Shown in pieces: positions 25,386 through 60,485 of a stretch of DNA of 64,000 nucleotides. This stretch comes from Antedon mediterranea (Eukaryota > Animalia > Echinodermata), in contig NC_092674.1 of the NCBI RefSeq assembly GCF_964355755.1, forward strand, positions 23,684,001 through 23,748,000, in the 5' to 3' direction. The position numbers were made by a program, and so were the translations under genes. Within the stretch, counting starts at the first letter, position 1. Each line of letters begins with the position of its first letter. The notes below the pieces were generated by a model. It did no database searches and was not told the DNA's origin. It worked only from the letters and a program-made list of their open reading frames with translations.

Positions 25386-25661
25386 TGCCTACAATTAAGA
25401 TAATTAATTGCAAATTGGCGATAAGCGTTCTATCCAATATTTGAACCAACTAGCAAATTTAATTAAATAAACAGCTCTCTGATAACACCATGGATACATA
25501 TACATTTCAAGATACACCTGAGTGTAATCGTCACACCTGCGGTATTTAAGTTAGCTTAATTTGCAAAAACTGGGTCCACTTCAACATAACATCGATTCGG
25601 AAACGGGAGCTTCACCTCCAACAGTTTACTCCAGTAAGCACGCCTGAATGGTGTGAACGCA

Positions 25662-30099: not shown

Positions 30100-30215
30100 C
30101 GACGATAAAGAAGTTGACAATGACGAAGACAAATGATGATGAAAAGTAAAACATGTTAATGATTATGATGATGGTAAAGATGAAGACGATGATAATGAAG
30201 ATGATGATAAAGATA
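30100..30215. repeat. Degenerate (GAT/GAC/GAA)n microsatellite
   Basis: gatgatggtaaagatgaagacgatgataatgaagatgatgataaagat. Confidence 0.6.
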
Positions 30216-39190: not shown

Positions 39191-40354
39191 ATGGGCACTG
39201 TGTTATTCACAAACACGTGTAGTGTGGAAATGACTCTTTGTATTGGGGATTGCTATACATTCAAAAATCTGACAGAGAGCAACGAATATTCGAATTGGGA
39301 GACAATATGTGTTTGCTACGTGTTTCCAGTTATAATGTCCGTTGGCGTCATTACGAACATTTCATTCATGTTCGTGTCATATCGTATCTCATATCTTCAC
39401 ACTGCTGTAAATAATTTCCTTATAAATTTATCAATAGCAGATATTATATTCTTACTAATAGCAGTGGGAGAAAAACTAAACAGCTATTACGAGTTAGATG
39501 TGAACATCCACTCTGGGAAGAAGACATTCCTTGGATGTACCGTAACGTCAATATTGAAGAACTCTTCTTCTTTCACGGCTCAAATCTTAGTTACTTTAAT
39601 CGCATTGGAACGATATAGAGTCATATGTTACCCCATCAGAGCTTACACAATACACTCTAGGGTAAGGGTTAGAAGACAGAACTTCGGCTCTTGGGTCATC
39701 GCGGTGCTTCTCTCTGCCTCGATGTCACCAGCCGTCGGTAAAGAAGAATCCTATTGTGGGGTATGGCCTGTGAAGGATGGCGAATTTGTCGTCATTGATA
39801 TATGTGGCAGTGTGAACAAGGGTTTTGTGATCTATTATGAATTTATACAAACAGTTCCTTTCTTTATCGCCTGGACTATTACCAGCATAACGCATATTCT
39901 GATTGTCATAGGCCTGAAGAAGAGCAATTCCGATTCACGTCTACACCCTAAAGGATCCAAAGCGTTAACTAGAGCCGGGAACCAGATTACAGCAATGCTA
40001 TTAATAAACGGCGTAACATTTTTTTTGCTTTTGGCACCGTTCCAAATAACATCATTAATGGCGATGATAAAGCATACTATTGGTGATTACAACAGCGATG
40101 ATCCATCGGAAAATCATACTTTTCTTAATATAGGTAGACTGCTGTTGTACATGAACGCTGCCATTAATCCAATAATATACGTAATAGTGAACCAGCGGTA
40201 TCGTAATGCGTACGTGTTGGTGTTCTGGCGATGTCGTCGCCAAGACGATGACGAAATCGCAGGGGGAAGACCGCATAGCCGACAGGATGTAAACTGTACA
40301 TTTTTAAACATGAAAGATGGTTTTAATCGTCAACAATTTGACACATATTTGTGA
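39191..40354 (+). CDS. Intronless class A GPCR 5 (divergent family member)
   Basis: 387 aa, 7TM, GVITN, NLSIAD, LERY, LAPF, NAAINPIIY. Confidence 0.93.
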   Translation: MGTVLFTNTCSVEMTLCIGDCYTFKNLTESNEYSNWETICVCYVFPVIMSVGVITNISFMFVSYRISYLHTAVNNFLINLSIADIIFLLIAVGEKLNSYYELDVNIHSGKKTFLGCTVTSILKNSSSFTAQILVTLIALERYRVICYPIRAYTIHSRVRVRRQNFGSWVIAVLLSASMSPAVGKEESYCGVWPVKDGEFVVIDICGSVNKGFVIYYEFIQTVPFFIAWTITSITHILIVIGLKKSNSDSRLHPKGSKALTRAGNQITAMLLINGVTFFLLLAPFQITSLMAMIKHTIGDYNSDDPSENHTFLNIGRLLLYMNAAINPIIYVIVNQRYRNAYVLVFWRCRRQDDDEIAGGRPHSRQDVNCTFLNMKDGFNRQQFDTYL

Positions 40355-41518
40355 ATAAACATAAATGAATACTGTACCGTATAATACACATCAAGTATGG
40401 GTGTAGTAACATATTAACATAAGAACACAAATAAATTAGCATAAACCAACAGGTGATACTCATAATAGCTATGATTCTCTATGCAATATTTTGCACTCTG
40501 ATTTTAACTAAATCGACTGTATATGCCTATAATATGTATCCTACCTAGAAAATGTAAAGTACGAGAGTGATGCGAGCAGATCTATAGGCAATAGCATAAC
40601 GTAGTTTTGATGACGCAGGGCCCTCCTAAAAAGACAAACCGAACGACTATACTATTAGAACGTTTTTCATGGGATAACAAAATACCTCCCACGGACATGT
40701 AGTGTATAATCGTCGATCGCCAGCATGAATTTATTTCAGCCGCAAGAACGCGAAACCCTGCCTAGGTCGTCTTGGGCCGATGGTTTTTAGACAAACAATG
40801 AACTTTCGGTTCGAACATGCAATGAACCGTGACGTTCTTTCTATTATGTCATAATTATTCTTATGAATTATTCATGATTTCCTTAACCTCATAGGAAAAA
40901 AATGCTGACGGGAGGTCAAAATACTGTGCAGAATATCAATCAATAAAACGCAATTAAAATGAATATTGTATTTTTGTTTCTGTTCTGCAGTTCCAGTTAC
41001 ATAAAGTATTACAAGTTATATCTCGCTTCCATGTAATCGGGTGGGTAAATTTTTATAGATCTATTTAGCCTATTCCTATTTATGCTTAACTGTTGAAATT
41101 GTTGGGCCTGTACAGACTTAGTGATTCATAGGCACAGTTATCTTAGTTGGTCGAATCAACTTAGTTGATTGAATTTGGATCACAGAGTTAACAACATTGA
41201 ATTAATTGCATTACTTTAATATAGAGTAAAAGTTCTACTACGATTATCAAAACTAATGACGCTTTTTATCTTTGGAAAACTATGTAAATACAAGAGAATG
41301 TTTGCAATTATAGAATCATGAGATAAGTATGTGTACTTAACCATTATAAGTATTTTAAAAATAAAATTATCAAACAGGTAACGTGAAATGCATGTGAACA
41401 TTCGGTATGATATTCGGTATGTGTAATTCATTTAAATGAAATGTTCCCTCTCTGTTAAACCAAAACTAGCAACAAAAGTCTAACTTCAATTGCTTACATC
41501 AAATAAACTGTGTGTGAA

Positions 41519-41620
41519 ACAAGGCCATATACATGGCTGCAGTCGCGTGCTCAAGTTAGTGTTTAACGACCTGCCAACCGACATAGTGAGCTGTAGAGAC
41601 GCGTTACACGCAACTAAAAA
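41519..41620. mobile_element. Short Helentron-associated (HINE/DINE-like) repeat; second copy 44889-45003
   Basis: aaacaaggccatatacatg.ctgcagtcg.gtgctcaa...gaccgac microsatellite...acatagtgagctgtagag.cgc...cacgc.actaaaaa is shared by both copies. Confidence 0.6.
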
Positions 41621-42358
41621 ATAAACGCGAATTGATGACGCAGTACCAGTAGGCCAATATATATTAAATCTATTCATAGATTTTAAGTAGTCATTTAAAA
41701 TCGATCGTGAGAGGTTCTTTCATAGAATTTCCGACAAGCGTGTTTTACAGTATTCCACTAGTTTACCAATCGTTGAAACTTTTAATATGACAACATATCG
41801 TTATTATTATATTTATTCAATTCTATTAGATAGTGGTTTCTTGTTGTAATGTAAACTTAAACGAGCATCACATCTTCAAGTTTTATTAGGACGGACTGTG
41901 TACATAACGCTGGCGATCTCGGAAAACGTGCGTTCTTGAAACTCGAGAAAAACGAAAACGCATTTACTCGAGATGCACATACGTGGTAATTAATTGAAGA
42001 GCGAGTGGGTTTATTATTTTCACAGCATTACGGTGTATGCCGACAAACAAGAACGAACAAACAAACCACATAGCTACCAATTTCGACAGCTGTTAAAAAT
42101 CGGTTGATAAGCTGATGATAAAGCGAATTTATTCCGACATTCTTCATTCGAAGTATTGGTGAAGTATTCTACTTTGCATTTCTTGAAACAAAAAAGTACC
42201 GAAGCAATCTAATAATACTACAGTGTCACTAATTAGGCCTCTATACGCAATTCCTGTTTTTAAGAAGGTTTTTTTTTTATTATTATTTTCGGGTAGGCCT
42301 AAATGCGTTACCGATGCAATATTGAAAACCTGAGTTTGTGAATGAAGGTTGGAAAGAA

Positions 42359-43090
42359 GACGTTTTGGTGAATCCATAATAGTGGACGTGAAGTATTCTT
42401 TTTTGGATTTCCTGAGGTACCGTAACATTATACCATGGACCTATCATTTATAGGTCCATGATTATACTACTACTACATATTACAACTAATTATATATGTA
42501 ATTCCTGAAGCTTGTTTTAAGAATGTTTCTTTGCGGTAGTTATACAAGACGTTTGGTGAATTTATAATAGTGGACGTGAAGTATTCTATTTTGGATTTCC
42601 TGAACCAAAGGTACCGCAAAATTATACTAATACTACATAATTATTACAACTAACTATACGTAATTCCTGAAACTTAAGAATGTTTCTTTGCGGTAGTTAT
42701 ACAAGACGTTTGGTGAATCTATAATAGTGGACGTGAAGTATTCTATTTTGGATTTCCTGAACCAAAGGTACCGCAAAATTATACTAATACTACATAATTA
42801 TTACAACTAATTATATATACGTAATTCCTGAAACTTAAGAAGGTTTCTTTCCGGGTAAATACGTTACCGTTATAGTTATACAAAACGTTTGGTGAATCCT
42901 TAATAGTAGACATGAAGTATTTTATTAGATCCTGAACCAACGATACAGCAACAGTGTACTTCTACTACTATTAAAACTAATATATACGTAATTTCTGAAA
43001 CTTATTTTATGAATTTTTCTTTGTGGGTAAATGCCTACAATAAAAATTTAAGTTTGTTGATATTTGGAAACAGGACGTTTGGTCAACCCA
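42359..43090. repeat. Tandem repeat, ~160-190-bp unit, 4 copies plus a partial fifth, directly upstream of GPCR 6
   Basis: gacgtttggtgaat.tataatagtggacgtgaagtattct...cctgaaccaaaggtacc at about 42359, 42548, 42705, 42885 and, partially, 43074. Confidence 0.85.
42427..42467. mobile_element. 27-bp palindromic micro-element or footprint with 7-bp TSD (P-element-like)
   Basis: ATTATAC-[CATGGACCTAT CATTT ATAGGTCCATG]-ATTATAC; repeat units 2 and 3 carry the empty site with a single ATTATAC. Confidence 0.75.
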
Positions 43091-43121
43091 TGCTTTCATC
43101 ATCCGACTACACATTGCAGTA

Positions 43122-44306
43122 ATGGAAATATACCAAGAAGTATTGTCGACCGAGCTAATTAGAGACTCGAGTATATTCAATTATACGGATGTCGCTAGTT
43201 TTTGTATCGACAGAAATTTTACTTATACTCCATCTTATTTGTATACAAACTTTGAGACTGTAAACATACTAATCATTTTACCGTTACTACTTTTTCTGGC
43301 AATTCTTACAAACTTGGTGTTTATCATCGTTGTTGCGCGTGCACCTCGCATGCGCACGACAACAAATATTTATCTTGTGTCGTTAGCTTTAGCAGATCTT
43401 TTGTATACAATAATTGGAATTACGGAGAAGCTCCACGCGTATATAAGATCGCCAATTTACTTTGACAGTGCATATTCTTTAGACTTATGGTGCGCAGTTA
43501 TGCCTTTGTTGAAGAACGCAGGACTTTTTGCGTCGATGTTCCTGGTGACTGTGTTCTCTTACGAGAGATATGAAGCAGTCTGTCATCCTCTTACAAAACA
43601 TAGCCTCAGTTCCAAACGACGCGCACTCAAACACATTACGATTGCTTGTGTTTTGGCGCTAATACTTGCCGCCACAACTGTTCCAGCATTCGCAAATAGA
43701 GTCGTTGCCTGTCTGAAGAAACTTGCAGAAGACGAACACTCTGATATTCCAGACACGATAATTTTATGCACACCGGTAAAGCAACGGTTCGAACTTTACA
43801 ATGATTTCGTCCAGACTCTTCCGTTTTTTCTTGTTATGATATTCAGTAACGCTGCGTACGTTTTGATTATAATAGAAATTCGAGGAAGCGCAAGAGATGC
43901 GAAACTAAAACGTGCGGATTCAAGTCGAGTTATTCAAGAAAGCATCAACATCACAAGGATGCTGATTGTAAATGGTGTCGTGTTCTTTATCCTAATGGCA
44001 CCATTTCACATTTTATCTTTAAGTGGAGTGATCAGTTCCATAATCACGGGTGAGTACCTTCTATCGGAAGAGGCATTTAGATGGATTATACAGGTCGTTC
44101 GGGTGCTTGCATACTGTAACGCTGTCGTGGATCCGGTGATCTACAGCGCCGTTAATCCGTCGTATAGAAAAGCCATGTACCAAGTCATTTGCTCGCTACA
44201 TATACTGAGAAGGAAAAGGTCGAATAGCTTTGGCACTTACTCGATGTCATACCTTCTGACAGAGCGCGACAGAAGACCTTCAAATGTGAACGAAACTATA
44301 ACCTAA
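43122..44306 (+). CDS. Intronless class A GPCR 6 (divergent family member, DPxxY)
   Basis: 394 aa, 7TM, SLALAD, YERY, MAPF, NAVVDPVIY. Confidence 0.93.
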   Translation: MEIYQEVLSTELIRDSSIFNYTDVASFCIDRNFTYTPSYLYTNFETVNILIILPLLLFLAILTNLVFIIVVARAPRMRTTTNIYLVSLALADLLYTIIGITEKLHAYIRSPIYFDSAYSLDLWCAVMPLLKNAGLFASMFLVTVFSYERYEAVCHPLTKHSLSSKRRALKHITIACVLALILAATTVPAFANRVVACLKKLAEDEHSDIPDTIILCTPVKQRFELYNDFVQTLPFFLVMIFSNAAYVLIIIEIRGSARDAKLKRADSSRVIQESINITRMLIVNGVVFFILMAPFHILSLSGVISSIITGEYLLSEEAFRWIIQVVRVLAYCNAVVDPVIYSAVNPSYRKAMYQVICSLHILRRKRSNSFGTYSMSYLLTERDRRPSNVNETIT

Positions 44307-44677: not shown

Positions 44678-45751
44678 ACCTAAATAAAAATACCCCTGAA
44701 ATGTCAATTCACATCATAAACTACAGTATTAGGATTTTTTCACTTATCGGAAAACGATAGGATGGGTCGAACAGAGAAATGCAAAATTGAAAAAATACAT
44801 TGACTATGATAAATCGATTGCGTGCATTTTAAGACGATTTATAAATCTCTGTAATAGACTTCTAAACGAACAATACAAAATGAATTCTAAACAAGGCCAT
44901 ATACATGACTGCAGTCGTGTGCTCAAATTTGAGTTAGTGTTGACCGACCGACCAACCGACCGACATAGTGAGCTGTAGAGTCGCATTTGCACGCGACTAA
45001 AAAACGACGCATGTTATAATGTCAAAAAACCCCTTATTTCATGTTTTTTTCTTTGTGATTATATTTTGTTTTCCAAATGGTCTTACGACTACAGACAATT
45101 ATTTGTCCCTGTAACAATGTAAATATTGATATTGCTGAATAAATGTGAATTTGAAAAAACATCAGGACGTTTGTTTGAAGTAGTGGTACTTTACCAGAAA
45201 TAAATATTTAAGCTATTTTTTTTTATTATACAACTGTGTAAAGGCATAATTAATAATTTACTCGGATTTAAGAACTTTTGACCAAATCGAATATGGGAGA
45301 GGGGTTGAATATTGAATGTGTATGTTTTGTTCATTATTTATTTTATAGGCCTATATCTTTTGTTACGTCAAATTGCATCAACTAGACTTATAAATATGTA
45401 GTAAATTATAATATACGTATATATACCAATTGAATTGTATTACGAAGTATTTATTTTTAAAATGTTTGTTTGTATATGTATATTTTGGTCTTGCAATAAA
45501 ATAAAAATGATCTCAGTGTAAGAACATTAAGGCCAATTTACACAGACGAGCGGTAACGGTAAACGGAATACAAAAATATAGAATCTTATCTCTTATGACC
45601 ATTTACACAAATCGCAGAGCGCTACCGTTCGTCTGTGGAAATTGACCTTTAACCTTTATTGATAACATTGTAACATACATAATAATAGCTAATAAATGTC
45701 AATTCAATTCAAATTCTATCCATTGCATCTTTTCAGCAAATCATAAGGATA

Positions 45752-48700
45752 CTATAAATCATCATCCTCTTCTTCAACTAATCTTCTACTAGACTCCAAT
45801 CCTGTTTTTCTTTTAGACATTAGTGGTTTCATTGCTGTTGCTAGACTCTGGTACAGTCGTGGAAACAGAAGCTCTTGTGTTGCTAATAGTTGCTTTGTTC
45901 GATGTCTTTCCTGAAAAATTCAAACAATGAAATGATTTATAATCTTTAAATTGTCCAAACCTACAGAATTTCTCTAAAATTACGAGCATTCCAGGTCATG
46001 GAAACAACCATTGTTTTCAGAAAAGTATCCTTTTCTTAAACTGAACATACAGTAGAACTATATACATATCCAAAAAGTCTGACTCCACAAACTTAGTCCA
46101 TAAGAAGTTCATCATAATTGAGAACAAGGTCTATGTAGGAAAGGGGGAAAAACAGGTCCTCCAAAAATATTCCGCAGAAACTACTTCCTAGAAATATCTC
46201 CTCTTTTTTTCAGAAGTAGTAATTTAAATCTGTATTATGCTGTTAATTGGGACATCATACCCCTTATGAATAGTAGCGAGATCTTCCTGGTAGTGAACTA
46301 GAAAGATTCTACAAGCTTTCCTCAAAGCTCTATCTACATTATCAAACTTTAAGTGATAAAAAAATTGCTCATATATGGATATGCTGACGTCATATCTCTA
46401 TCATATTTAGGAACATCACACTTTTTTTTTGTCAGTTTAATAGTGTAAAGCTTTACTCTTTCCACAAACAACTGTAAATTCATCAGGTATTACCTATCTC
46501 CCACCAGTAACAAATACATAAAGAGGATTATATACCTTTGGAGCCTCGAAGCAAGCTGGGCAATTCTCAGCAATGACTGGCAAACGCATCTACGTAAACA
46601 AATAAACTGTTTCATTAAATGTAGTTTTGATTTTAACATTATTGTTATTCAGTTTATACAGTAGAACTCCTATTCAAGGGACACTTTTGGGGCTCAAAAA
46701 GGTGTCTTCTAAATAGAAGTTGAAAGTAGTGTTAAAAATAGATTTCCCGTCTTGTCCCCTGAATAGGGCTCTACTGTATCTATCAAAATATATTGTGACA
46801 AAATAAAATATTTATTAAAAGTTGGTGCACCAAGGCTCAAAACTGACTAAATTATAACATTTTTCTACAACTATTCTAAAAACGTGACAATACCTCTTTA
46901 GCAAAGTCTCTGAGATCTTTTTCTCTGACATATACAAATGGTCTGATGACTCTTAAATCACCTTCTCTATAAAAAAAAAAGAGAACAATTGTATTATTTG
47001 TTTATAACTACAATAACACTTTTGTACTCTCTCTTCAATTAGTTTGATTTAAAAGTCTATTTTCCTGTGACTTACACACCGGATTACAACATGCATTAAG
47101 GCCAATTAACACAGAAGAACGGTAACAGCAATAAAAATATAGAATCTATGTTATTCCTTGTGACCATTTACACACAACGTGGAGCGGGCAGGTAGTTTCC
47201 GCTCAGGATACAGATTCTACATGGGACAAGTTACACGGTTTTCCACTTACAGTTACTGCTTGTCTGTGTAAATTGGCCTTTTAACGTTTTCTCGCTTCTG
47301 AACTGTGTTGTAAATCAAACTTACTTTACAATATAGTTGGCTTTCATCGTTCTCATAAGGCCATTGTGAAAAACAGACATAAAAAAGCTGAAATAAAAAC
47401 ACACTACACTTTAGAATAATTATTTTAAAAAAATGTACTTAAGACAAGATTATTTTAAATTGGACGTATCAACAATGTTTCATTAGATATCATACCTCTC
47501 AGCTAAATCATCTAGATGCTGACCCATTGCAAGTACATTGTAGTTCTCACGTCTTGCGGCCGCGTAAATTCTACCACGTTTCATTCGTGAACAAAAACTA
47601 CATATTGATGTGCATTCAGGAAGTGAAGCTGCTTGTTCCATTATACCTGTATGAGACACAAAATTTAGTTCATTGACACTTTTGGGGGAGAAATTGAGAA
47701 TGGAAATTACATATTTTTAAATATTTTTATAGATTTTTGCCCAGTAGTAATTGTTTAGCAATACTATAAATTATATGTCATGTCATAAATCAGAAATAAA
47801 TCATATTTCAATTCAAACATGTTTATTTTTGTTTAGGCCTAATAAGCCAATCAAATTATTATTATACTTGCATTGTTCTTCATAAAAATATGGCACCCTC
47901 AGTTCTGATAGGTAACCTTTCAATGGGCTTGGGTCATAGGTCGATGTTTGTGGATCAACTGTGACTGCACCAAGTTCAAATGCTATATTCTAAAATTAAA
48001 ATTAAAGAATTTGAACAGATCTTATTTTTAACTAAATCTAAGAATATAAATACAGATTTTGTGATTAAAATACATTGTTTAAAGATTTTTTATCTAAACA
48101 TACAGATAACGCTAATTTTTTTCAAGCAACAATTTAAAGAAAATTAGTTTAGTCAAAGGTCGACATGGGTGCTTTTAAGTAAATAGTTCCTTTTATCTGA
48201 AATGAGTTGCTTTCAACATAAGCCTGCCAGATGTTTTCCATCAACAAACCTAAAGTGTTACAAATTGCTATCTCGTAGTTATACTTACTTTTTTCTTCGC
48301 ATAATATTGATATTGTTTTAGCGCATGTAGCAGAGACAAACTGTCCTTCCCACCAGATAAACAAACAAGTACTTTGTCACCATCGTGTATCATGTCATAT
48401 TCCTCAAGAGCCTAGAAAGATTTAATTAAAATGATGACGAGTTTTTCAAATAATTGACTTGTCATTACACAACCTTAACCTCTGTCTACACTATCAATCT
48501 AGTTTGACAAACAACTGTGATATGTCCATATATATAAATGGTGACATCATATCACTACCATACTTAGGCAAGACACTTACGTTTGTCTCTCTCCACTCAG
48601 GTGTACATGGGTTGCTGATTACTAGCTGCATAATTATGGCAGCTGCCCATACGTGTTTGATCTAATGGCCAGAGTAATAATGTGAAGCGCTTAGAAGCAT

Positions 48701-51700
48701 TGAGCATTAAAGCACTAGATTGACATAATTACCTCTGTTGTTGGTTTAAATATGCTCTTGGGTGGTGGGTAAAACCTTGGCGTTCCATCCACCTCTTTCT
48801 TCTTTTTGTTGTTCTGTTTCTGAAACTTATGCTTAGGTTTTGGAGGCTTTCGTTTAATAAGTGGACAGCTGGTTACTGATGTATCTTTAATATCCTTAGT
48901 ACAAGTTGTTTCTTTTGCTGATTCCGATTGCTTATTCTTTCGTGAAGATTCAAATTTATCACAGGAGCAATTATAAACTTCTGTGTTTCCTCCAGTTGGT
49001 AAATCACAGTGACCATTTTCTGGATGTCTAAAATGACTATTTTCTATATCTAGGTTACTATGTGGCTGATATGATAAACATTTTCCAACTGTGAGAGGTA
49101 AATGATCTGATGATGTGCACTTCTGTGATATCTTTTCTTTTTCCAGCTCACCATTTATAGCAGAATGAGTATCATCACTCTTTAATGTCTCGTCAGCTGA
49201 ATGTGATGTCCTCATCTGCACATCATTGTCTTGAACCAAACCATAAATATGTTGCACAGAAGTAATATCTTCTTTTGTTTCTAATGACATTTTGCTAATT
49301 TTTTCTTTACAGTCAGATACTCCTGCAGCTAAGACAAAGTCTTTTGTTGATGAACTAATATGGTGATCAGACAAATACTCTGATTTTTCTTCTAAAGAAG
49401 GAGTTTTTTGGTCAACCTCTAGTGGTGTCTTCTGGACATCTTCCTTAGAATCATCAGGTCCTAAATGGCATAATTCTACTACTGATTCTCTTTCCACCTT
49501 TGCAATTCCTTCCTTTTGTTGATGTAATGTTGTATCATCTGGATGATGTGGTGGATTGAATGGCATTGTATTTGTGATGGAATGACTTGGGTCATTCTGA
49601 ATCTGAACAGCTTCACTCGGCAGTATAAACCATCGTAAAGATTCTGCCTTTTTGTCAAAAAGCAGAGACTGATCTGGTAGGTCAACCTTTAAAAAGGTAA
49701 AAAAAACAAGGAAAAATCAGGACTAGGCACATACATGAAATATAGCAACAGTATATTCTAAATGTGGTTGAATTAAGATGACACACATATGGCATTCATT
49801 AGTCTGTTCACAACGGCATCGACTGCAATGCAATAGCACCGGAGTTAGACCCAATCTCTTAGAAGAAGCACTTGGTTCTTCCAAGTCCACATAAGCCAGA
49901 TGTTTATCCAGTCATTTTAGGAAGATTTTTCTATCAGAACTAAAGATAGCTGATTTTATGGCTATGATTTGCAGCGCCCTTGCCGTTTGCAGCGCCTTAA
50001 CCTTTCTCCCACTCGACTAAAACATATTCTACTGTAGTTATAACTTACATTCATTTTAGAATTGAATATCTCTGTGGCTAAATTCGAACAGTCCTAGAGA
50101 AACAAAAACCAAAACAATTATAACTATAAATAACAGGATTTACAACGGACTAACAATCCTTAAAAGGTTTTTCTTCTAAAAGTAATCAAAATATTTGTTG
50201 GTACCTGATAGTTTTCTGGGGACCTTCCTTTGTTTTTTGGGACTGGAGGTTTAGGGTAAGCTAATTTTCCAGTTGCGTAAGAAATAGAACCAAGCCAGCG
50301 CCGATCTCTGAATACTTGATGATAACGCTGCTTCCATTCTCCAGTTTCTGGGTTAAACATGTACTGAAATGAAAAATGTTTATGTACAGTAGCAACAGAA
50401 TTTTTGGAAATTTAATTCCTCGGCCTGATGAATAGTTACGACAGTGAACACATTATTCAATCAAAACTTTTAAATTAATATCTTCTATTTACCTGTGGCA
50501 ACAATTTCCATCCCTCATTTGCTACCATAGCAACGGAAGAAATAACAAACTCTACCGCCTCATCACTCATAAAATAAGGTAGATTAATACGTGCAAAACC
50601 TGGCCTAGATGTAGATAATGAAAACAGTATATTTACAGAATGCAATCTTCTTAATTCTCTTTTTAAACATTATATTTACAAATTGTATTTCTCCATATAT
50701 TTTAACCTAATTAAATATAATAGTATATATAGAAATGCAACCATATTATTTATTTTAGCAGACTTGCCCCAAGTCTCTAGTTATTGTCTTTTTTAATTTA
50801 TGTATAGTCAGCTTTTTCATTTGTCTGAAAAAGTATTATACATATTAAACGCCAACTAAGACAACATTTTCTTTTCACCAATATTAGGTCGAAATGCTGT
50901 CTAGAGCCTAGACTAAAATTGTAGGTAAATTTTCTGTGGTTTTAATTTTAACCTACAGTATAACAGTTTTTGTCTACTTAACTTTGCAGTATTTAAAATA
51001 AAAAATGAAACATGAATGAAAACAATGTTTTTTATGTTAAATGATACATTTACTATAATAAAAATGTTAAATTACCTTAATATTTCTTTTTCAGAATATT
51101 CTTGGTACCTTCTCAGATGTGTTCTGTCCAGTCGACTGCAAAACAATAATAAAAAAGTAAATTAAAGTCCATTATAATATCTAATTTACATGGTTAGCCT
51201 TCTACATTGTTTGAAAGACATGTGGGTCTCTCTTCCATAAGATGCACACCATTAGTAGCTTTTAGCATACACAATATAAAATAGTTTTAGTAAAATGGAA
51301 ACATGCAATTTATACCTGTCTTCTAAAAGGAGGGATTCAATCTCTTTTGCTAAATTTTCATCAATGCCAAGCAAGTCCTAAAAATCAAAATAATTAAATC
51401 ACAGTAGTTATATATTTGGATTGAATTTCAAACTACAAAATTAGGCATGTACGTTATCAGGGTATGCAATATCATAAATGGGGTAGTCTCACCCATCGAC
51501 CCCACCTTTCCATGGTACACCACTGGGTATATAGGATGCTTATTCAAGCATGTGGTGCTGTACTTACCTGAGCATATGGTACATACCTGAGTGTATGGTA
51601 CATACCTGAGTGTATGGTACATACCTGAGCATATGGTACATACCTGAGCATATGGTACATACCTGAGCGTATGGTACTTACATGAGCATATGGTACATAC

Positions 51701-53773
51701 CTGAGCATATGGTACATACCTGAGCATATGGTACTTACATGAGCATATGGTACATACCTGAGCATATGGTACTTACATGAGCATATGGTACATACCTGAG
51801 CATATGGTACTTACATGAGCATATGGTACATACCTGAGCGTATGGTACTTACATGAGCATATGGTACTTACATGAGCATATGGTACATACCTGAGCATAT
51901 GGTACATACCTGAGCATATGGTACATACCTGAGCATACGGTCCAGCACAAGCGCAACCTCCTCTAGCTTGAATACCAAACACGTCATTCAAAACTGCACA
52001 AATGAAATTATGATGCAAGAACTGTTTGGTGACTGGATGCCTTATAAGGAAGCTGAAAATGGGAAGTCTCTTTAGTGACGTGTTGCCAAGCAGAACTAGG
52101 TTTTTACACGTCTTCCAGGCATCTAATGCTTTCCTTTAATATAAAACAAAACTTGAAATAATCAACTTTTAAAATATGATTACTCTATGCAGTATATTCA
52201 TCATTGGCAGACATGGGGAAATCTTTCAATTAAAGGGTTTTTCACACTTATTCTGGCAATGTTCTGGTCCGCTGTCGACAAATCAAATAAAACGTCAATG
52301 TTTTGTTTTCATGCTGCATATTGCTTGGTGCATAGTCGCATGGAGCGTTGTGAAAACGAAACATTGACGTTCAATTTGATTTGTCGGCGTCGAACCAGAA
52401 CCGTACCGGAAGATGTGTGATTGATGACTATGACCATGTCTTTTTAGGACTTTTTAGTCTTTTGTGTTAAGTTGCTTGTTAATGCTTGATAACTATTTTA
52501 ATTAACTAGGTAAATATATACAAGAACAACATTATATTCTTATGTAAATTTGATAGGTCTCTCGATTAATATATTATAGTGTTTCTCTGCATGACATTTC
52601 TGGGAGTAAATAATAATGAATTTCTGATCTTTTACCTTTATTAAACTTAACTTTTTAACATTTTTGTTATTAGCTAACAGATTTTAAAACCTAGAGATAC
52701 TCTTTTAACTAATAATTGTATTAACTAATGAGATAAAGTAGCTATATTGTGTTTTTCTCTTTATGCAGAAAGTATTTGAATGGAATCCAAAACAGTAGTT
52801 TAATGAATTCCTTACTTGCACAATTCATGCTCCATTTGCATTATCAAATCAGCTCCCACAGCCTGTATATGTAAACAATATTAAAACATATTAAAATGGA
52901 AAAGACTTATTAAAACAATAGAACATACTGTATGTCATTACATCATACGTTCACTGACATGTCAACATGAATGTCCACTATCGAAAAATACATATATATC
53001 TGTGGACTAGTACCAGTTGACTACAATCCATGTGGACGTGAACTTTGTGCCCGGTCACTCAAACCAAAAAGAAACATTTCTCACCTCCTTCAGCTGAAAA
53101 ACCATACCAGCTCGGATAGCTCCTACTATAGAGGGCGTACCACCTTCCTCTCGCATTTCAATTTGTTGCAGGTACCGATGACTTTCTCTTGTAACCTTAA
53201 AAGGATCGTTAAAATGTTATTTTGAAAGATTGATAAATGAAAGATAGTTACAGTAGAACTCTTTTAAAGGGACACCTTCGAGACCTAACAAAATATCCCA
53301 TTAATAGGGGTGTGAATTGAGTAGGTGTTGGTCATATAGTGTTAAGATATATTTCATTTTGTTCATTTCAAAGTGTTCTTAAATATTGGTGACTCCTGAA
53401 TAAGAGAGTCTCAAATGAAGGGTTGTATCTACAACATTGCATAGCGACTGATGTAGTTGAGCAGCTCGGAAAAACTCTCATGAGACGTCAGTTCACATTG
53501 GTTTATTCTTTTATGAATCTGTCTTACTAAAGCTCTGCCTACACTATTTTATTTATTTTTTTATTTTATTCATTTCGGCAATAAACTATCAAACTTAGTC
53601 TAGGTTCAAGACAAAAATTGGTATACAAGATAAATATTTTGGCACATTATGGCATTTCATACGTATAATACACAAATCGAAATGCCCCCTGGTGGACTAA
53701 CAATAAAAAATGACAATAAATACAGACTTGGGGCAATTCTATCAAACATTATGTGACAACAAAATATGATATA

Positions 53774-53819
<46 letters not shown>

Positions 53820-56800
53820 CATATATCACTACAATATTTGGGCATCACTACCATATTTGGGTACACCACACTTTTTTGTCAAACTACAAGATAGTGTAGA
53901 CAGAGCTTTACATTGTATTTTAATTAAAATCTTACAAAGAACACAGAACCGCCACCCCCTCCGTCAGTAGGTACAGGATTCCTGAAGAGTTTCTTCTTTG
54001 CAATTAACACACCTGGGGTTTCCACTCCACCAACAAACTTATGGGGTGAAAGGAATATTGCATCTTTATGAGCCAGACCACTGGTACTGAAAGGGTACAA
54101 ATGAATTATAATTAAAAATATTAACAATCAGGTTTGATTAGGCTGAATGTAGCTGAACCCTCTTAAGCTCTGTCTACACTATCAAATTTTATGTGACAAA
54201 AAATGTGATGTGGCCATAATATGGACATAATGATGTTATATCACTACCCTATTTTGGCATACCACTACCATATTTGGGCACAACTAGTTTGATAGTGTAG
54301 ACAGAGCTTAACACATTATTTCCAAGAATATATCTGACATGAAAAACTTCTCACCTGGTAACTGGATTCATATCAATTTTAACATATGGACCTAAACAAG
54401 AAAAAGAGAGAGAGAGAGATCATTTTTAAGCTCTGTCTACACTATTAAACTAGTTTGTGTGCCTAAATATGGTAGTGATAATGCTCAAGTATGGAAGTGA
54501 TATGACATCACCATGTCCATATATGGGCAAATCACATTTTTTCTCACATAAAATTTGATAGTGTAGACAGAGCTTTAGGAACAAATGCTTTGAAATTCTT
54601 TTTTTTTTTGCAAAACAAACAAATATTCAAATTTATATGTAGACCTGTGGTGCCATATTCAGCAATCACACTAATTCAAGTGAGATATTTCTCTTAAATA
54701 TTAAGTATTTCACTTAAATTTAAAAGAGTGTTTCCCTTAGCCTAGGTGTGAATGGTAAATACAGATCACTTTGACAAATTGTTGACAGTTGACTATTGCA
54801 TTGTGGGAACAAGTATACATTTTGAAATGCCTTAAATTTCACATAAAATTAATTATAAAGCAAATTATACAGTGATGTAAAAGGGAAAAATTAGTTTTTA
54901 GACTTTTTAGTCTTGTGTTCCAAAATCCTGGATCCACCACTATATCTATACATGAAACTAAAGTGTACTATATACCAGCAGTAGCATAGTCCCAGAAAGC
55001 CAGAGCATCATAGCGGTGAAGACATGTGGTGATTGAATCTGTATCCAATAGAATTCCAGTAATGTTAGAAGCAGCTGAAAAACAGCCAATCAGTTGCTTC
55101 CCAGACTCCTTCCATTTCTAAAAAAAAAAAACAATTTTAAAAGTTTAAATATAAATTGAAGGCAATTACTGCTAAAACTGGATTTTAATTTTTTTAAATC
55201 AAGAAAACAGATCCAAACTTGGAAAAATAAAATACTAATAATAAGAGATTTTATAAAAGCAAGGCCAAACCATAGAGGCCACACTATTTTTTTAAATTAC
55301 CTCCGAACATAGATGGGCTATGAGAATATTTTTTACAAAATCAATAAGTTTTATCACAAAAAACGTGAGCGATGCATGATGGGAAGGAATTGGGAGCAAT
55401 AGCGCCACCAACAGTATATAAAGTTTTTATTATACCGTGGCGCTATTGCTTCCAAACCCTTCCATCACTTGCGAAATCAAATCCCAATCGACTTGGGAGG
55501 TCTGGTAAAACGTTAAAAGTAAACATTCAGAATTAAGGCCACATATTACTTTGTTAGGGCTACATTAGATATTCTTATCATTCTAAATTGATTTCTTTAA
55601 CTTACCTTCAGTTCCTCTTCCAAGTGAGTCATATTAACCCCTGCTTGTGAATCTTGTGATATACGAACAACCTGACAAAGAGAGAAATAAAAGAATAAGG
55701 GCAGGTATGTAACCAGCTTTTTGGAGAGCCAGTCGGCAACAAATTATCCCCACACCCACCCCCGGGTTCGGTGGGATACCCGGGGATTACCGTTATTAGG
55801 CCTATATAAATATTGTAATAATTAGTAGTGATGTTTGGCAGCCTGTAAATTCTGGTCGAAAATTTTGAGTGCTGGATGGGTCCGTCCGACACTTACCAGC
55901 GTGGTGACATCCCTGTAGAGGGCACTTTGTGACAAAAGCTGTATATTATAGCATTTTTGTCATTTTAATGTATTGTACAGCTTCACAGTCTTGCTAAATT
56001 TTTAATAAACAAGTAGATTATATTTTTTTTGAGTGAATAATAAATTCAATAACAAATAATAAATGACCTGACTGACTAATAAATATTTTCAATTTTTAGT
56101 ATATTTTTTTGTTAAAAATGTATTTGGATAAATTCCATATTTGTTTATTTTTCATTTTGTATGAATATTTGTATTAAAAGAAATGACAAGTACCTTGGCT
56201 CCAATTTCTCGCCATGGCAAAAAAGTTGAATGATGCTCAAATGGTCCAACAAATACAACCTGTAGAAATTTTTATTTTTTTTTATTAAGTGTTACAAAAT
56301 AAGTAAGTAAAAATATAATGAATTAAGAACTTAGAGACTGAGCGAAAACACTTGGCAGAATACTGATACCGACAGAGGGTATGTTATTTCGGCCAATGTT
56401 AAAAGAATACAGATTTTTTATTTTAAAACGATTTTCTTGTTCTGCAAGTATATACCCATTTACACCGAAATAATAGTATTAATAATAATGCTCAAGGCCC
56501 AAATGGGAAATTAGATAAAAAAAGACAAAAACTGTGGACACTATTGTGCAAACAAACAAACAAACAAAGCAAGTATTATTCTTAGTAAAATTCTATTTTG
56601 CCAAGTAATCATGGTCTACTGAACTAATAATATTATACTAGCTAGCAAACAGTCAATCAGCTGGACAGAAAGAAGCTATAATTAATTGAAAAATGCGAAT
56701 TTAAAAATAATACATAAAATAAAAAAATGAGAAAATTACTGGAGGTGTAGTGAGGTTGAGGGCATTGATTAATTTATGAACTGCTCCTGTGCAACCGGTG

Positions 56801-59800
56801 CCAACAAATATAACAGCATCATGTTCACTAGCTTTCACAGCATTACGAACAATATCCCTGCAAAAAAAGCATATTTAGTAAATTTTCTTTTAAAAAGTGA
56901 AATTAGCATAACAAAACAAACTAGAAAGCCACTCCGAGAGTGCATACCTCCGCCTACTGTAAAATTCTCCTACATAAGAATTCTCCGGTAAAAAAATATA
57001 TATATATATTTGTGTGTGTCTTAATGCTGTTTGTGATTTACGCTAATTTCACTACAAGCATGTGTATGCGAGTTTGGTGTACACGTTATGTAACCAGCCT
57101 TTCAACTAACAATAGATTCAGTTGACTAACAATACAACAGCAACGCGAAAAAACACACGAGTGAATTTGAAAAGAAATAGGTTTTTTAACTTGACTCGCA
57201 TTAAAAAACCTGTTTATTAAATCTAATTAAGTTTTAAAATTACAAATCACAAATTATAACTCTTGCCTCTTGTACAAAAATGAAGTTTTTTGGACAAGTA
57301 CTTCCCGAGAAAATGCAATTTTAGTTTACTTGTTAATTTAAGACTGCTCACCGGCTTTTGATAATTCTGTCCTATCTTTTAACACTAGCAGGTCTGAAAA
57401 TAATTTTTAAAAGTGGTCCAGAATTGGGACCATGGTCCAGATTTTAACCAAAATTGGGCAGTGTTGTCCTTGCACCAGGTGACATGTATGGTAGTAATTT
57501 GGAGTCATTCGAATCAAAACTCTGTGAGCGCTAGAGTGATGACAAACAAACAAACAAACACACACACAAACCAAACAGATCAACATACTTGGCCAATTTT
57601 CAATTTGGCCAAATAACAAAACACACACAAACCAAACAGATCAACATACTTGGGCAATTTTCAATTTGGCCAAGTAACAAACACACGCGATCGATTACAT
57701 ATACCTCCTTGGCAGAGGTAAATAACATAGTTTTGCATTTTTGTTGGAATATGCACTATACGACCCCCGCGAGAGGTGCATCATACTTTATGATTACCAT
57801 AGCATTCCTGCGTCAAAAAAAGTGACTAAGCTTTAAGTTACCATGATATGGTGGGTGGTAAAGTAACAGACATTGACACACCATTGTTCATTGATGTGAT
57901 GTACCAATCTAGGTGTTTTGACTCACCCCTGTTCAATTATCATTTGTAAATGACGCATCCATGACTCGCCTCTCCCAGGGGTCGTATGTGAGTAATTCAA
58001 TTGAGTGAATTACAGTTAGATACTGATGTTTTAATCTTTTTATTAATTAAATTCAGCAACAATAGTTACCTTGCCTCATGACGAAACAGAGTTGTCTGTA
58101 AGGATGTTACTGATGTTGTTGTGTGAGTGTTTCCATACACTGGCAATACCTGTTCACTTATGTAATCTTCAATGAATTTCAAAGAACTATAGAAGAAAAA
58201 AAGTAAGCTTTTAGCAGTGCAAAAATGCTTCAGTTGTGTGAGCTGATTTTTATTAAAGTTGTGTGAGCTGATTTTTAATAAGTTGTGTGAGTTGATTTTT
58301 AATAAAGTTGTGTGAGCTGATTTTTAATAAGTTGTGTGTGCTGATTTTTAATACGTTGTGTGAGCTGATTTTTAATAAAGTTGTGTGAGCTCATTTTTTA
58401 AGTTGTGTGAACTGATTTTTAATAAAGTTGTGTGAGCTGATTTTTATTAAAGTTGTGTGAGCTGATTTTTAATAAGTTGTGTGAGCTGATTTTTAATAAA
58501 GTTGTGTGAGCTGATTTTTAATCAGTTGTGTGAGCTGATTTTTAATAAAGTTGTGTGAGCTCATTTTTTAAGTTGTCTGAGCTGATTTTTAATAAAGTTG
58601 TGTGAGTTGATTTTTTTTAGTCGCGTGATGAGCTGATTTTTAATAAAGTTGTGTGAGCTGATTTTTAATCAGTTGTGTGAGCTGATTTTTAATAAAGTTG
58701 TGTGAGCTCATTTTTTAAGTTGTCTGAGCTGATTTTTAATCAAGTTGTGTGAGCTGATTTTTTTTAATCGCGTGATGAGCTGATTTTTAATAAAGTTGTG
58801 TGAGCTGATTTTTAATAAGTTGTGTGAGCTGATTTTTAATAAAGTTGTGTGAGCTGATTTTTAATCAGTTGTGTGAGCTGATTTTTAATAAAGTTGTGTG
58901 AGCTCATTTTTTAAGTTGTCTGAGCTGATTTTTAATAAAGTTGTGTGAGCTGATCTTTTTTAGTCACGTGATGAGCTGATTTTTAATAAAGTTGTGTGAG
59001 CTGATTTTTAATAAGTTGTGTGAGAGCTGATTTTTAATAAAGTTGTGTGAGCTGATTTTTAATAAGTTGTGTGAGCTGATTTTTAATAAGTTGTGTGAGC
59101 GGATTTTTAATAAAGTTGTGTGAGCTGATTTTTTAATTTGTGTGATGGATCAGGGAGTAAAGAATGTATGGATGAGCTGGTTTTTTAAGTAGTGTGAGAT
59201 GATTTTTACTCGGGGTACCCGAGTCTAGGACTTACTCATCTTCTCTTCGTCCATCTGGACACTATTGAGTAAAAAGTGCAAGTTTATTTTGCTTTGTGCT
59301 TATTACCATATTTATTTGTAATTTAAATGGATTAAAAAACTTTGTGTAACCCACATTTTTAGTGTAAGAGGTTTCATAGTGTAGTGGTTGTCAAGTCTGC
59401 TTAACACGCAGAAGGTCCCGGTTCGAGCCCTGACGAAACCTATTTTTCTTTAACTTTATGGTGAAATAAACTGTATACGTAATATGATATACAGAGTATA
59501 TCTCGTTTTATTACTCGGGGTACCGGAGTCTAGGACTCTCTCATCTTTTCCTCTTCTTCTTCCATCCGGACACTATTGAGCAAAAAGTGCGATTTATAAA
59601 GTACTACTCCTCCCTTATTCGTTGTAGTATTGAGCTCGGATTTAGCATGAATATACTACAGGGACATGTCCTCTAAGCTATAGAGCCGGATTTTTTAATT
59701 TCAAACCGGATGCAGCCATATCACGTCTCGAAGATGGTACCGTATAGCCATATTTGGTAGCGCGGTTATTGATGTGTATGTGACGTTGCATCCGGTCTTA

Positions 59801-60485
59801 TGACGTCATTACAGCTTCTTTCGCTAGTGTACCCCGAGTATTGCATTCGTGCTTGTTCAAGCTGTGTGAGATGTGAGCTGATTTCTTACGGTATGTTGTG
59901 TGTGATGATTTTGTGAATTAACCTAGTAGGCTACTTACCGTCCAGAAGCTGTGTAATCACAATATGTAACTATAAAAAGGAGGACAAACAATTAATTATA
60001 TGTGTGTGCATAAAAATTGTAAGAATTAATTTTTTCATTTCTCAATCTCATAATACAAGGTAGAGGGGAGGGCCTAAATCACACTGCAGTATTATTTATT
60101 ACATGATACCACAAGAAATTCCATTATAGTGTTCACTAGGGCTATATCAATCAATATTCCAAAAAGTATGTTAGTTTTTTGCAAAGATTCGGCCGTTGCG
60201 AAGTGACTAAAATAACAGTATGGCGATATGGGGCGAACCGACTTTACCTGTACGTTGCCCAAATGGTCCAGAAAACGACGTGTTGTTGCCCAATACATTT
60301 TCGTCAATGTATTTTAGCAGCAATTTTGAATCAGATTTCTTACTACTTTTAAGCTTTTTCGTAACTAATTGTTCAATTGTATTATTTGGTATTTCATAAA
60401 ACGTTCTATATCCATGCGTTAGTGTTTCTTGCACATTTTCGTCAATGTTTTTGTTGCACTTCTTCGTACTTATGGAGGCTGCCAT
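45752..60485 (-). CDS. Cysteine desulfurase-like (aminotransferase class V) / TtcA-like PP-loop tRNA 2-thiolase fusion protein, 25 exons, ~1153 aa
   Basis: Exons 60485-60248, 59969-59939, 58186-58070, 56857-56740, 56259-56194, 55671-55606, 55117-54976, 54391-54355, 54086-53936, 53195-53085, 52862-52816, 52133-51929, 51377-51316, 51135-51076, 50604-50493, 50363-50205, 50093-50049, 49686-48733, 48411-48289, 47989-47872 (GC donor), 47646-47496, 47387-47325, 46966-46894, 46589-46536, 45910-45752 total 3462 nt with matching phases. Motifs: [57 protein letters not shown], then [36 protein letters not shown]. Confidence 0.9.
46659..46776. mobile_element. Tc1/mariner (pogo/Tigger-like) MITE
   Basis: TA-cagtagaactcctattcaagggaca...tgtcccctgaatagggctctactg-TA. 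Confidence 0.65.
51561..51938. repeat. 19-bp minisatellite (~20 copies) built from the exon 12 / intron 12 splice-donor junction
   Basis: Minus-strand unit ccatatgctcag|gtatgta with the variant ccatatgctcat|gtaagta; the first copy is the real donor at 51929/51928. Confidence 0.95.
53777..53813. repeat. (TA)n microsatellite inside a MITE copy
   Basis: Uninterrupted TA run of ~18 units. Confidence 0.9.
54166..54308. mobile_element. Harbinger-type MITE, abundant family (also 53739-53907, 54429-54574, 63064-63205; partial copies near 17960, 19430, 19830, 46380, 48480)
   Basis: TIR agctctgtctacactatcaaa / tttgatagtgtagacagagct, TTA or TAA flanks, shared core catatcactaccatatttgggcac. Confidence 0.85.
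54429..54574. mobile_element. Same MITE family, inverted relative to the 54166-54308 copy
   Basis: Same TIRs, TTA on both sides; internal sequence is the reverse complement of the neighbouring copy. Confidence 0.85.
56918..57722 (-). mobile_element. Helentron-associated non-autonomous element (HINE/DINE-1-like)
   Basis: One end has the short hairpin tacctccttggcagaggta next to an (acaa)n/(ac)n microsatellite; the other end has the subterminal inverted copy tacctccgcc (56946) and aaactag; A/T-run flanks and no TSD. Confidence 0.6.
57758..57987. mobile_element. Small MITE
   Basis: TIR tacgacccccgcgagagg.gcatcat / atgactcgcctctcccaggggtcgta. Confidence 0.55.
58232..59140. repeat. Minisatellite, ~24-25-bp unit, ~36 copies with higher-order variant pattern
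   Basis: Consensus aagttgtgtgagctgatttttaata; degenerate units continue to 59206 and at 59860-59912. Confidence 0.95.
59370..59441 (+). tRNA. tRNA-Val(AAC), degenerate (probable pseudogene)
   Basis: GGTTTCA...CGAAACC acceptor stem (1 mismatch), A box TAGTGTAGTGG, anticodon arm TCTGC-TT AAC AC-GCAGA, B box GGTTCGAGCCC, T5 run just downstream; D and T stems carry mismatches. Confidence 0.7.
59512..59840. mobile_element. MITE with TA flanks; its left ~75 bp is duplicated at 59207-59281
   Basis: TA-ctcggggtac...gtaccccgag-TA; tactcggggtacc.gagtctaggact...ggacactattgag.aaaaagtgc occurs at 59207 and 59512. Confidence 0.65.

What the first reader, a model, noticed from the sequence alone, without database searches (positions are those of the whole stretch)
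45752..60485. Animal gene fusing a SufS-like cysteine desulfurase to a bacterial-type TtcA tRNA thiolase: a self-contained sulfur relay
Seen: a single 25-exon reading frame (~1153 aa) joins an N-terminal PLP class V domain (DYTASG, EHHS, D-Y-A, SPHK lysine, EEGGTP, RGGCACA) through a ~280-aa low-complexity linker to a PP-loop domain (SGGKDS, CSFC, GQHLDD, IRP, CPAC). Known: bacterial TtcA uses SGGKDS plus two CxxC motifs and a [4Fe-4S] cluster to make s2C32 in tRNA, with sulfur ultimately supplied by a separate cysteine desulfurase; group II (SufS) desulfurases carry the persulfide Cys in RxGHHCA, which RGGCACA parallels. The domain lacks the extra terminal zinc fingers of eukaryotic Ncs6/CTU1, so it is TtcA-type. 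I know of no established s2C32 pathway in animals. Inference: one polypeptide mobilises sulfur (or selenium) from cysteine and delivers it to an adenylated RNA or small-molecule substrate independently of NFS1/URM1. Similar fusions probably exist in automated invertebrate annotations, but I know of no functional description.
Basis: partly seen in the sequence, partly recalled or inferred. Interest (0 to 1): 0.82.

Follow-up and report, generated by a model that had tools for sequence, protein, structure and literature searches.

The report
Fused cysteine desulfurase-TtcA tRNA thiolase gene
This invertebrate gene splices a sulfur-releasing-type enzyme domain and a bacterial-type tRNA-thiolating domain into one reading frame and likely makes 2-thiocytidine in tRNA, but the same fusion is widespread in eukaryotes and a 2026 sea-slug preprint has already described it.

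Summary
The gene is real: 25 exons, 1153 aa, all named motifs in place. One spliced contig joins exons 7-25 across the linker. It is not new. 208 of the 473 proteins held carry both domains, in invertebrates and several protist groups. A September 2026 preprint describes the fusion in Aplysia and maps s2C32 on tRNA-Lys(UUU), without a genetic or enzyme test. Our scan has also reported it on other DNA.

Added here: (1) The PLP domain is not IscS; it belongs to a separate, longer SufS-like family, and C437 aligns with SufS C364. (2) The TtcA domain groups with a stand-alone CSFC/CPAC subfamily found mostly in sulfur-oxidising Gammaproteobacteria (99/98 support), which is the only TtcA in 39 of 40 genomes searched. 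(3) An uncontrolled model of a short-linker sponge orthologue reaches pTM 0.88, which suggests the domains dock.

Best reading: a likely cytosolic s2C32 writer carrying its own sulfur source (0.65). 'Self-contained' overstates it, because the Fe-S cluster probably still needs the normal assembly pathway. New member of a recently recognised, untested family.

The parts
45752..60485 (-). Whole coding span, 25 exons, 1153 aa: long SufS-like PLP domain (about aa 53-615), unconserved linker (about 616-890), TtcA-type PP-loop domain (about 893-1140)
   Evidence: model; spliced contigs; family scans
60248..60485 (-). Exon 1, start ATG, aa 1-79
59939..59969 (-). Exon 2 (31 nt), DYTASG
   Evidence: homology only
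58070..58186 (-). Exon 3
   Evidence: homology; junctions not shown
56740..56857 (-). Exon 4
   Evidence: second spliced contig
56194..56259 (-). Exon 5, EHHS; H177 = SufS H123
55606..55671 (-). Exon 6; holds M204, the start of database protein P0002
54976..55117 (-). Exon 7, DYA; D255 = SufS D200
54355..54391 (-). Exon 8
53936..54086 (-). Exon 9, SPHK; K288 = PLP lysine (SufS K226)
53085..53195 (-). Exon 10, EEGGTP
52816..52862 (-). Exon 11
51929..52133 (-). Exon 12, RGGCACA; C437 = SufS catalytic C364, C435 is a second invariant Cys at the place of SufS H362
51316..51377 (-). Exon 13 (insert after the catalytic loop)
   Evidence: contig length arithmetic
51076..51135 (-). Exon 14 (insert after the catalytic loop)
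50493..50604 (-). Exon 15; R489 = SufS R379
50205..50363 (-). Exon 16, conserved C-terminal extension of the long desulfurase family
50049..50093 (-). Exon 17
48733..49686 (-). Exon 18 (954 nt): end of PLP-domain extension, the whole linker, first helix of the TtcA domain
48289..48411 (-). Exon 19, PP-loop SGGKDS
47872..47989 (-). Exon 20, followed by the GC-AG intron
47496..47646 (-). Exon 21, CSFC (C1003, C1006 = E. coli TtcA C122, C125) and GQHLDD
47325..47387 (-). Exon 22
46894..46966 (-). Exon 23, IRP
46536..46589 (-). Exon 24, CPAC (C1093, C1096 = second CxxC of E. coli TtcA)
45752..45910 (-). Exon 25 coding part and stop; transcript contig continues to 45535, AATAAA at 45660

Best explanation
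One spliced gene encodes a SufS-like PLP domain and a TtcA-type domain in one chain, which likely acts as the eukaryotic writer of 2-thiocytidine at tRNA position 32, drawing sulfur from its own desulfurase domain. Shown: the gene structure, the fusion, and conservation of both active sites. Inferred steps: (1) PLP on K288 takes L-cysteine and leaves a persulfide on C437; (2) the TtcA domain holds a [4Fe-4S] cluster on C1003, C1006 and C1096, probably loaded by the ordinary cytosolic assembly pathway; (3) the PP-loop uses ATP to activate C32 of tRNA, with tRNA-Lys(UUU) one likely substrate; (4) sulfur moves from C437, perhaps by way of the extra invariant C435, to the free iron and then to the base. 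Class II desulfurases need a dedicated sulfur acceptor; the fused, predicted-docked TtcA domain would be that acceptor.
For: All 20 active-site positions scored are kept in 192 of 208 fusions, and most of the 16 exceptions are gaps; C435, C437, D255 and R489 are kept in 208 of 208. H177/D255/K288/C437/R489 align with SufS H123/D200/K226/C364/R379 (same register); the best folds are SufS. All four CxxC cysteines align with E. coli TtcA, where three Cys bind the cluster and IscS plus cysteine supplies sulfur in vitro (PMC4081106 passages). NCBIfam ranks TtcA far above TilS, TtuA and NcsA. The nearest bacterial relatives are the only TtcA in 39 of 40 genomes searched, as expected if they do the same job. 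s2C32 was mapped on Aplysia tRNA-Lys(UUU) and this fusion was the hit for E. coli TtcA there (preprint sections 18 and 20). Domain order is the same in 208 of 208. pTM 0.88 for an 880-aa sponge orthologue with a disordered linker against a rough expectation of 0.65 undocked and 0.85 docked, computed before the result. Stand-alone bacterial desulfurases of this family lie next to an MBL-fold hydrolase and a TauE sulfite exporter, a thiazoline-carboxylate hydrolase or amino-acid transporters, which fits cysteine-sulfur handling.
Against: No knock-out, complementation or enzyme assay was found for any member; the preprint's link is co-occurrence in one species. The fusion scores below the TtcA cut-off (197 against 272 bits) and far below the SufS cut-off (69-121 against 475). 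The eukaryote+CSFC/CPAC clade lies on a long branch away from tested TtcAs, and grouping the fusions with canonical TtcA is rejected; I found no paper on the bacterial subfamily. By fold alone the C-terminal domain matches TilS (Z 26.0) ahead of TtuA (22.6) and NcsA (21.8), and no TtcA structure turned up to compare. tRNA-Lys is not among the E. coli TtcA substrates listed in the preprint. The bacterial subfamily works without this desulfurase: none within the 80 loci fetched (up to 6 kb each side) and none found in 40 genomes. The pTM result has no control, is a monomer model of enzymes known as dimers, and its coordinates could not be inspected; the crinoid model gave an ambiguous 0.62. The motif is RGGCAC, not RxGHHC, and SufS Q203 is T258 here.
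Confidence: 0.65

Rival explanations
1. The protein makes s2C32, but the desulfurase domain mainly builds or repairs the oxygen-sensitive cluster, or releases sulfide locally, instead of handing the catalytic sulfur over directly.
For: E. coli TtcA's cluster is oxygen-sensitive and IscS serves both cluster assembly and turnover. Linker length ranges from 46 to 691 aa. The bacterial sister subfamily lacks this desulfurase.
Against: pTM 0.88 points to a fixed arrangement of the two domains. Class II desulfurases depend on a specific acceptor (PMC8300815 passages).
Confidence: 0.17
2. The CSFC/CPAC clade has a different target: another tRNA position, another RNA, a small molecule, or selenium instead of sulfur; Aplysia s2C comes from another enzyme.
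For: Long branch to tested TtcAs; below the family cut-off; SufS-type enzymes also cleave selenocysteine (names of PDB hits); the same desulfurase family is fused to other domains such as cNMP-binding and GATase.
Against: Sole TtcA in 39 of 40 bacterial genomes; s2C32 found in an animal that has the fusion; no selenophosphate-synthetase fusion among the 29 long desulfurase-family proteins scanned.
Confidence: 0.1
3. The fusion only couples expression: the chain is cut in the linker or the two domains work independently.
For: Linker unconserved and predicted disordered; the preprint raises cleavage; stand-alone copies of the desulfurase family exist; one beetle fusion has lost cluster cysteines but keeps the desulfurase motif.
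Against: Same order and intact sites across animals and protists; docking-level pTM.
Confidence: 0.07
4. Two neighbouring genes joined by a wrong gene model.
For: Some database entries hold one half only.
Against: One spliced contig spans the linker; intron-free single-ORF fusions in contigs L092 and L102; 208 fused proteins.
Confidence: 0.01

Closest known systems
Aplysia californica 'IscS-TtcA' fusion, LOC101861551, 1177 aa (bioRxiv 10.64898/2026.09.27.754811)
   Same: Same two domains, order, SGGKDS, CSFC, CPAC, PLP lysine, CxC pair and unconserved linker, by the preprint's description. The Aplysia sequence itself was not fetched; mollusc orthologues were.
   Different: The preprint calls the N-terminal domain IscS/CsdA and could not name the catalytic Cys; alignment here points to the second Cys of RGGCAC. 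Its third candidate (likely C576 here) is kept in only 94 of 204. It surveyed molluscs; protists and the bacterial sister clade are not in the section read.
E. coli/Salmonella TtcA (tRNA C32 2-sulfurtransferase)
   Same: PP-loop, both CxxC motifs, H-x-DD and IRP align; 33% identity over 236 aa.
   Different: Stand-alone, fed by IscS; different clade, fusion scores below the NCBIfam cut-off.
Stand-alone CSFC/CAFC-CPAC TtcA subfamily of Thiotrichales, Chromatiales, Thiohalophilus, Francisella and relatives
   Same: 49-57% identity and the same cysteine motifs; one clade with the fusions.
   Different: About 250 aa, no desulfurase fused or nearby; no functional study found.
Class II cysteine desulfurases SufS/CsdA
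   Same: Fold, PLP residues, short catalytic loop and position of the catalytic Cys.
   Different: 24% identity; RGGCxC instead of RxGHHC; a ~36-aa insert after the loop and a ~100-aa C-terminal extension; separate clade shared with uncharacterised 500-600-aa bacterial, plant, oomycete and animal proteins.
CTU1/Ncs6/NcsA and TtuA (U34 and U54 thiolases)
   Same: PP-loop and three-Cys cluster chemistry; same fold.
   Different: They carry terminal zinc fingers, which are not seen here; low profile scores.

Membership tests
Eukaryotic desulfurase-TtcA fusion (Aplysia type) | Aminotran_5 then ATP_bind_3 in one reading frame | tested here: met
   spliced contig
Eukaryotic desulfurase-TtcA fusion (Aplysia type) | SGGKDS, CSFC, CPAC, PLP Lys, CxC pair, unconserved linker | tested here: met
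   against the description
Eukaryotic desulfurase-TtcA fusion (Aplysia type) | One clade with other eukaryotic fusions | tested here: met
   TtcA-domain tree, 18 rows, 100/96
TtcA (broad family) | PP-loop plus cluster cysteines of the two CxxC motifs | tested here: met
   C1003, C1006, C1093, C1096 align with E. coli C122, C125, C210, C213. The paper numbers the last pair 219/222; equating them is my inference.
TtcA equivalog NF007972 | Score at or above 272 bits | tested here: not met
   187.8-203.6 bits for 4 of 4 fusions; the bacterial CSFC/CPAC proteins also score 200-232
TtcA (broad family) | Nearer to TtcA than to TtuA, NcsA/CTU1 or TilS | tested here: met
   Profile scores and Atlas neighbours. 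The trees held one TtuA-like row and, TilS; no CTU1 sequence; root uncertain. Fold search does not separate them.
TtcA (broad family) | [4Fe-4S] cluster and ATP-dependent s2C32 formation | not testable with these tools
   needs biochemistry; indirect support
CTU1/Ncs6/NcsA, TtuA | N- and C-terminal zinc fingers | tested here: not met
   No further conserved Cys pairs around the domain; Pfam finds only PF00266/PF01171; feature taken
TilS | No CxxC pairs; C-terminal tRNA-binding domains | tested here: not met
   two CxxC present, chain ends after the PP-loop domain; 60 bits against a cut-off of 93.6
Class II cysteine desulfurase (works like) | PLP His/Asp/Lys, substrate Arg, catalytic Cys on a short loop | tested here: met
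SufS/CsdA proper | RxGHHCA motif, family score, clade | tested here: not met
   RGGCACA; 69-121 bits against 475; separate clade, SH-aLRT 99, quick tree
IscS/NifS/NFS1 (class I) | SSGSAC motif with long flexible loop | tested here: not met
   no significant BLAST match to IscS, loop as in SufS; definition
Cysteine desulfurase activity | Persulfide formation from L-cysteine (or selenocysteine lyase activity) | not testable with these tools
   no assay found for this family
MOCOS / SCLY | Clade or domain set (MOSC domain for MOCOS) | tested here: inconclusive
   no MOSC hit; human SCLY is a weaker fold match, Z 24.4 against 31.3; neither was in the tree

The most novel reading that the evidence does not exclude
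An ancient eukaryotic enzyme, assembled from a TtcA of sulfur-oxidising-gammaproteobacterial type and an unstudied long CxC desulfurase, in which the two domains dock and pass sulfur straight from cysteine to the catalytic iron with no carrier protein. It would be a cytosolic tRNA-thiolation route that bypasses URM1/MOCS3/CTU1-2, present across invertebrates and several protist supergroups.
Probability: 0.3. Interest if true: 0.65.

Novelty: new member of a known kind. Interest (0 to 1): 0.36.

Why it matters
2-Thiocytidine was reported in a eukaryote only in September 2026 and its writer has not been tested. This gene family is the obvious candidate, and the analysis names the residues to mutate (C435, C437, K288, C1003, C1006, C1096), a simple stand-alone bacterial relative to assay, and a docking prediction to check. 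This particular copy adds little beyond a corrected N-terminus: the fusion is in databases, in a preprint and in earlier reports of this scan.

Tried and rejected
No whole genome is held for the window, so paralogues, CTU1/CTU2 and tRNA genes of this organism were not surveyed. No run on record as RNA was listed; X1 is a guess that proved to hold spliced contigs. Reads were laid on 45500-51500 and 51925-58235 only; exons 1-2 were not covered and no joint to exon 3 was listed. Viral contigs gave one 22-aa match, not a homologue. A bacterial desulfurase-ttcA gene pair was sought and not found: 0 of 80 TtcA loci had the desulfurase; 3 of 85 desulfurase loci had a TtcA domain, and all three look eukaryotic. 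A selenophosphate-synthetase partner was not seen in 29 proteins scanned. The complex-prediction queue was full, so no controlled interface test exists. Mutual information between domains (208 rows, effective 143) gave top z 5.4 against about 3 after shuffling, but shuffling also removes shared ancestry and the top of the list is dominated by gap effects: inconclusive. No CTU1, NcsA or further TtuA sequence could be obtained for the tree. The careful mixture-model tree did not finish; one search is the quick tree and one search is LG+G4 without TilS. The desulfurase tree does not resolve whether the fusion arose once (fusions need 8 changes, 4 forced by starred branches), and several 'stand-alone' rows are truncated fusions or of unknown origin. 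Paper searches listed no other description of the fusion (listings only; some were cut to the top 14-30 rows); one search used a worm gene name recalled from memory and found nothing.
Full report
Observation. All ten short motifs lie on the minus strand in the stated order. Snapping hand-picked exon ends to the nearest splice sites gave one stop-free solution: 25 exons, 60485 to 45752, 1153 aa, 23 GT-AG introns and one GC-AG intron. No whole genome is held.

Is it one transcript? Five runs hold the DNA, none on record as RNA. Run X1 holds a 2979-nt contig made of exon-sized pieces: 45535-45909, 47496-47645, 47871-47989, 48289-48410, 48732-49684, 50204-50363, 50493-50603 and 51928-52132, 53084-53193, 53934-54086. 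Piece positions agree with the predicted transcript to 1-2 bases, and the length ends in exon 7. The linker junction is therefore spliced as modelled. A 405-nt contig joins exons 4-7. These are assembled contigs from one run, not single molecules, and exons 1-3 were not linked by reads. Database protein P0002 equals model residues 204-1153, so the public entry lacks the DYTASG and EHHS region that relatives have.

Distribution. Searches with exon 21 and with P0002 returned two-domain proteins from sponges, placozoans, cnidarians, molluscs, annelids, arthropods, a nematode, echinoderms, hemichordates, amphioxus and tunicates; several are already auto-named 'tRNA-cytidine(32) 2-sulfurtransferase' (best 120 rows shown of 466 and 7897). 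No vertebrate appears in those rows, which are ranked by closeness and do not show absence; the preprint mentions bird hits without data. A search of 50%-identity representatives with a protist-like fusion (best 150) and look-ups of 20 of them named fusions in Stentor, Perkinsus, Choanoeca, Sphaerothecum and the fungus Hyaloraphidium. Of 473 proteins held, 208 cover both domains (at least 400 and 200 aa), all with the desulfurase first; the linker runs 46-691 aa, median 198. P0002, the window's own entry, is one of the 208.

N-terminal domain. Best sequence and fold matches are SufS enzymes (Z 31.3, rmsd 2.1 over 390 residues for the sponge model). Against E. coli SufS, H177, D255, K288, C437 and R489 align with H123, D200, K226, C364 and R379; C435 takes the place of H362 and T258 that of Q203. 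C435 and C437 are kept in 208 of 208. Identity to SufS is only 24%, and the domain scores far below the SufS cut-off. It belongs to a longer family: stand-alone 500-600-aa proteins at about 50% identity in Myxococcota, Actinomycetota and others, 39-47% on plasmids of Rhodococcus, Rhizobium and Roseobacteraceae, and Atlas clusters led by cnidarians, oomycetes and plants. They share RxGCxC and form one clade apart from SufS, CsdA and IscS (SH-aLRT 99, quick tree). Five plasmid neighbourhoods show an MBL-fold hydrolase in two, a TauE exporter in one, a thiazoline-carboxylate hydrolase in one and amino-acid or peptide transporters in three; none shows ttcA. I read this as cysteine-sulfur handling (inference).

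C-terminal domain. NCBIfam gives TtcA 197 bits (cut-off 272), TilS 60, TtuA 48, NcsA 22 for P0002; Pfam finds only the PP-loop family there. All four CxxC cysteines align with E. coli TtcA. PMC4081106 (passages) shows that three of them bind a [4Fe-4S] cluster and that cysteine plus IscS, ATP and DTT drive s2C32 formation. A scan of bacterial genomes found 192 relatives, of which 80 were kept: stand-alone proteins, mostly about 250 aa, at 49-57% identity with CSFC or CAFC and CPxC, in Thiohalophilus, Thiothrix, Chromatiales, Thiomicrospira, Francisella and unplaced Gammaproteobacteria. In 40 of those 80 genomes searched whole, 39 have no second TtcA-level match, and none gave a close match to the long desulfurase; 5 of 40 had 26-29% hits (the genomes may be incomplete). 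The type is uncommon: 4 of 301 Pseudomonadota genomes, the centre genome included. In the tree, 18 fusions form one group (100/96) and join 17 such bacterial proteins (99/98), apart from canonical TtcA; holding fusions and canonical TtcA together is rejected. The outgroup is a single long branch, CTU1 was not available, and the direction of transfer is not shown. By fold, TilS ranks first (Z 26.0) ahead of TtuA and NcsA; no TtcA structure was found.

Do the domains touch? The crinoid model has pTM 0.62 and a disordered linker, between my rough figures of 0.55 undocked and 0.71 docked. A sponge orthologue with a short linker and 110 aligned sequences gave mean pLDDT 89.9 and pTM 0.88, with residues 595-616 disordered; rough figures were 0.65 and 0.85. 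A value this high needs a confident placement of the two domains. There is no control, the model is a monomer of enzymes that are dimers in bacteria, and I could not see coordinates, so it is a lead. Covariation was inconclusive.

[quoted passage not shown] It has no genetic or enzyme test and leaves the catalytic Cys open. PMC10067955 and PMC8300815 (passages) supplied the zinc-finger and class I/II criteria. Eight earlier reports of this scan describe the same fusion in other genomes; I had found the preprint before looking, and treat them as leads only.

Mechanism and verdict. Most likely the protein is the eukaryotic s2C32 writer with a built-in sulfur source: persulfide on C437, cluster on C1003/C1006/C1096, ATP activation of C32, transfer across a domain interface (0.65; every chemical step is inferred). 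The cluster probably still comes from the general assembly pathway, which depends on NFS1 (own knowledge), so full independence is doubtful. Rivals are cluster upkeep instead of direct transfer (0.17), another substrate or selenium (0.10), uncoupled domains (0.07) and a wrong gene model (0.01). The finding is a correct observation of a recently described, widespread and still untested family: new member of a known kind, interest 0.36.

Noticed in passing
window 59369-59442 (+): A tRNA-Val(AAC) gene lies inside intron 2 of the fusion gene, on the opposite strand.
   Followed up: no
window 51560-51941: A 19-bp tandem repeat (20 copies) starts in the last bases of exon 12 and copies the exon end plus donor site: 13 CAG|GTATGT sites including the real one. 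The spliced contig uses the first.
   Followed up: partly
window 58232-59133: 25-bp minisatellite, about 37 copies, in intron 2.
   Followed up: no
window 47871-47647: Intron 20 has a GC donor; the spliced contig fits it.
   Followed up: yes
window 55606-60485: The public protein P0002 starts at M204 and misses exons 1-5, which hold DYTASG and the PLP histidine; it looks like a truncated annotation.
   Followed up: partly
window 25638-44303: Six long single-frame rhodopsin-family GPCR ORFs, four on + and two on -, a local receptor cluster.
   Followed up: partly
window 12628-17092 (+): Exons of an ANKH (progressive ankylosis) gene; the stretch at 16802-17092 holds two near-duplicate exon-like segments.
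   Followed up: no
protein P0360 (Diorhabda beetles): This fusion has lost C1003 and the CPAC motif but keeps the PP-loop and a RAGCPC desulfurase motif: a possibly inactive or repurposed TtcA domain.
   Followed up: partly
proteins P0419, P0420, P0424, P0440, P0460, P0435: The same long desulfurase family is fused to tandem cyclic-nucleotide-binding domains (five proteins, one also with GST and hemerythrin) or to a glutamine amidotransferase.
   Followed up: no
L022:425-2275, L057:5950-8694, L005:5512-6735: Three bacterial CSFC/CPAC TtcA ORFs are much longer than 250 aa (616, 914, 407 aa); possible other fusions or assembly effects, not desulfurase.
   Followed up: no
window 45530-45640, 46360-46430, 47130-47260, 48470-48510, 54160-54560: Short high-copy interspersed repeats in introns and the 3' end, seen as very high contig depth.
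   Followed up: no
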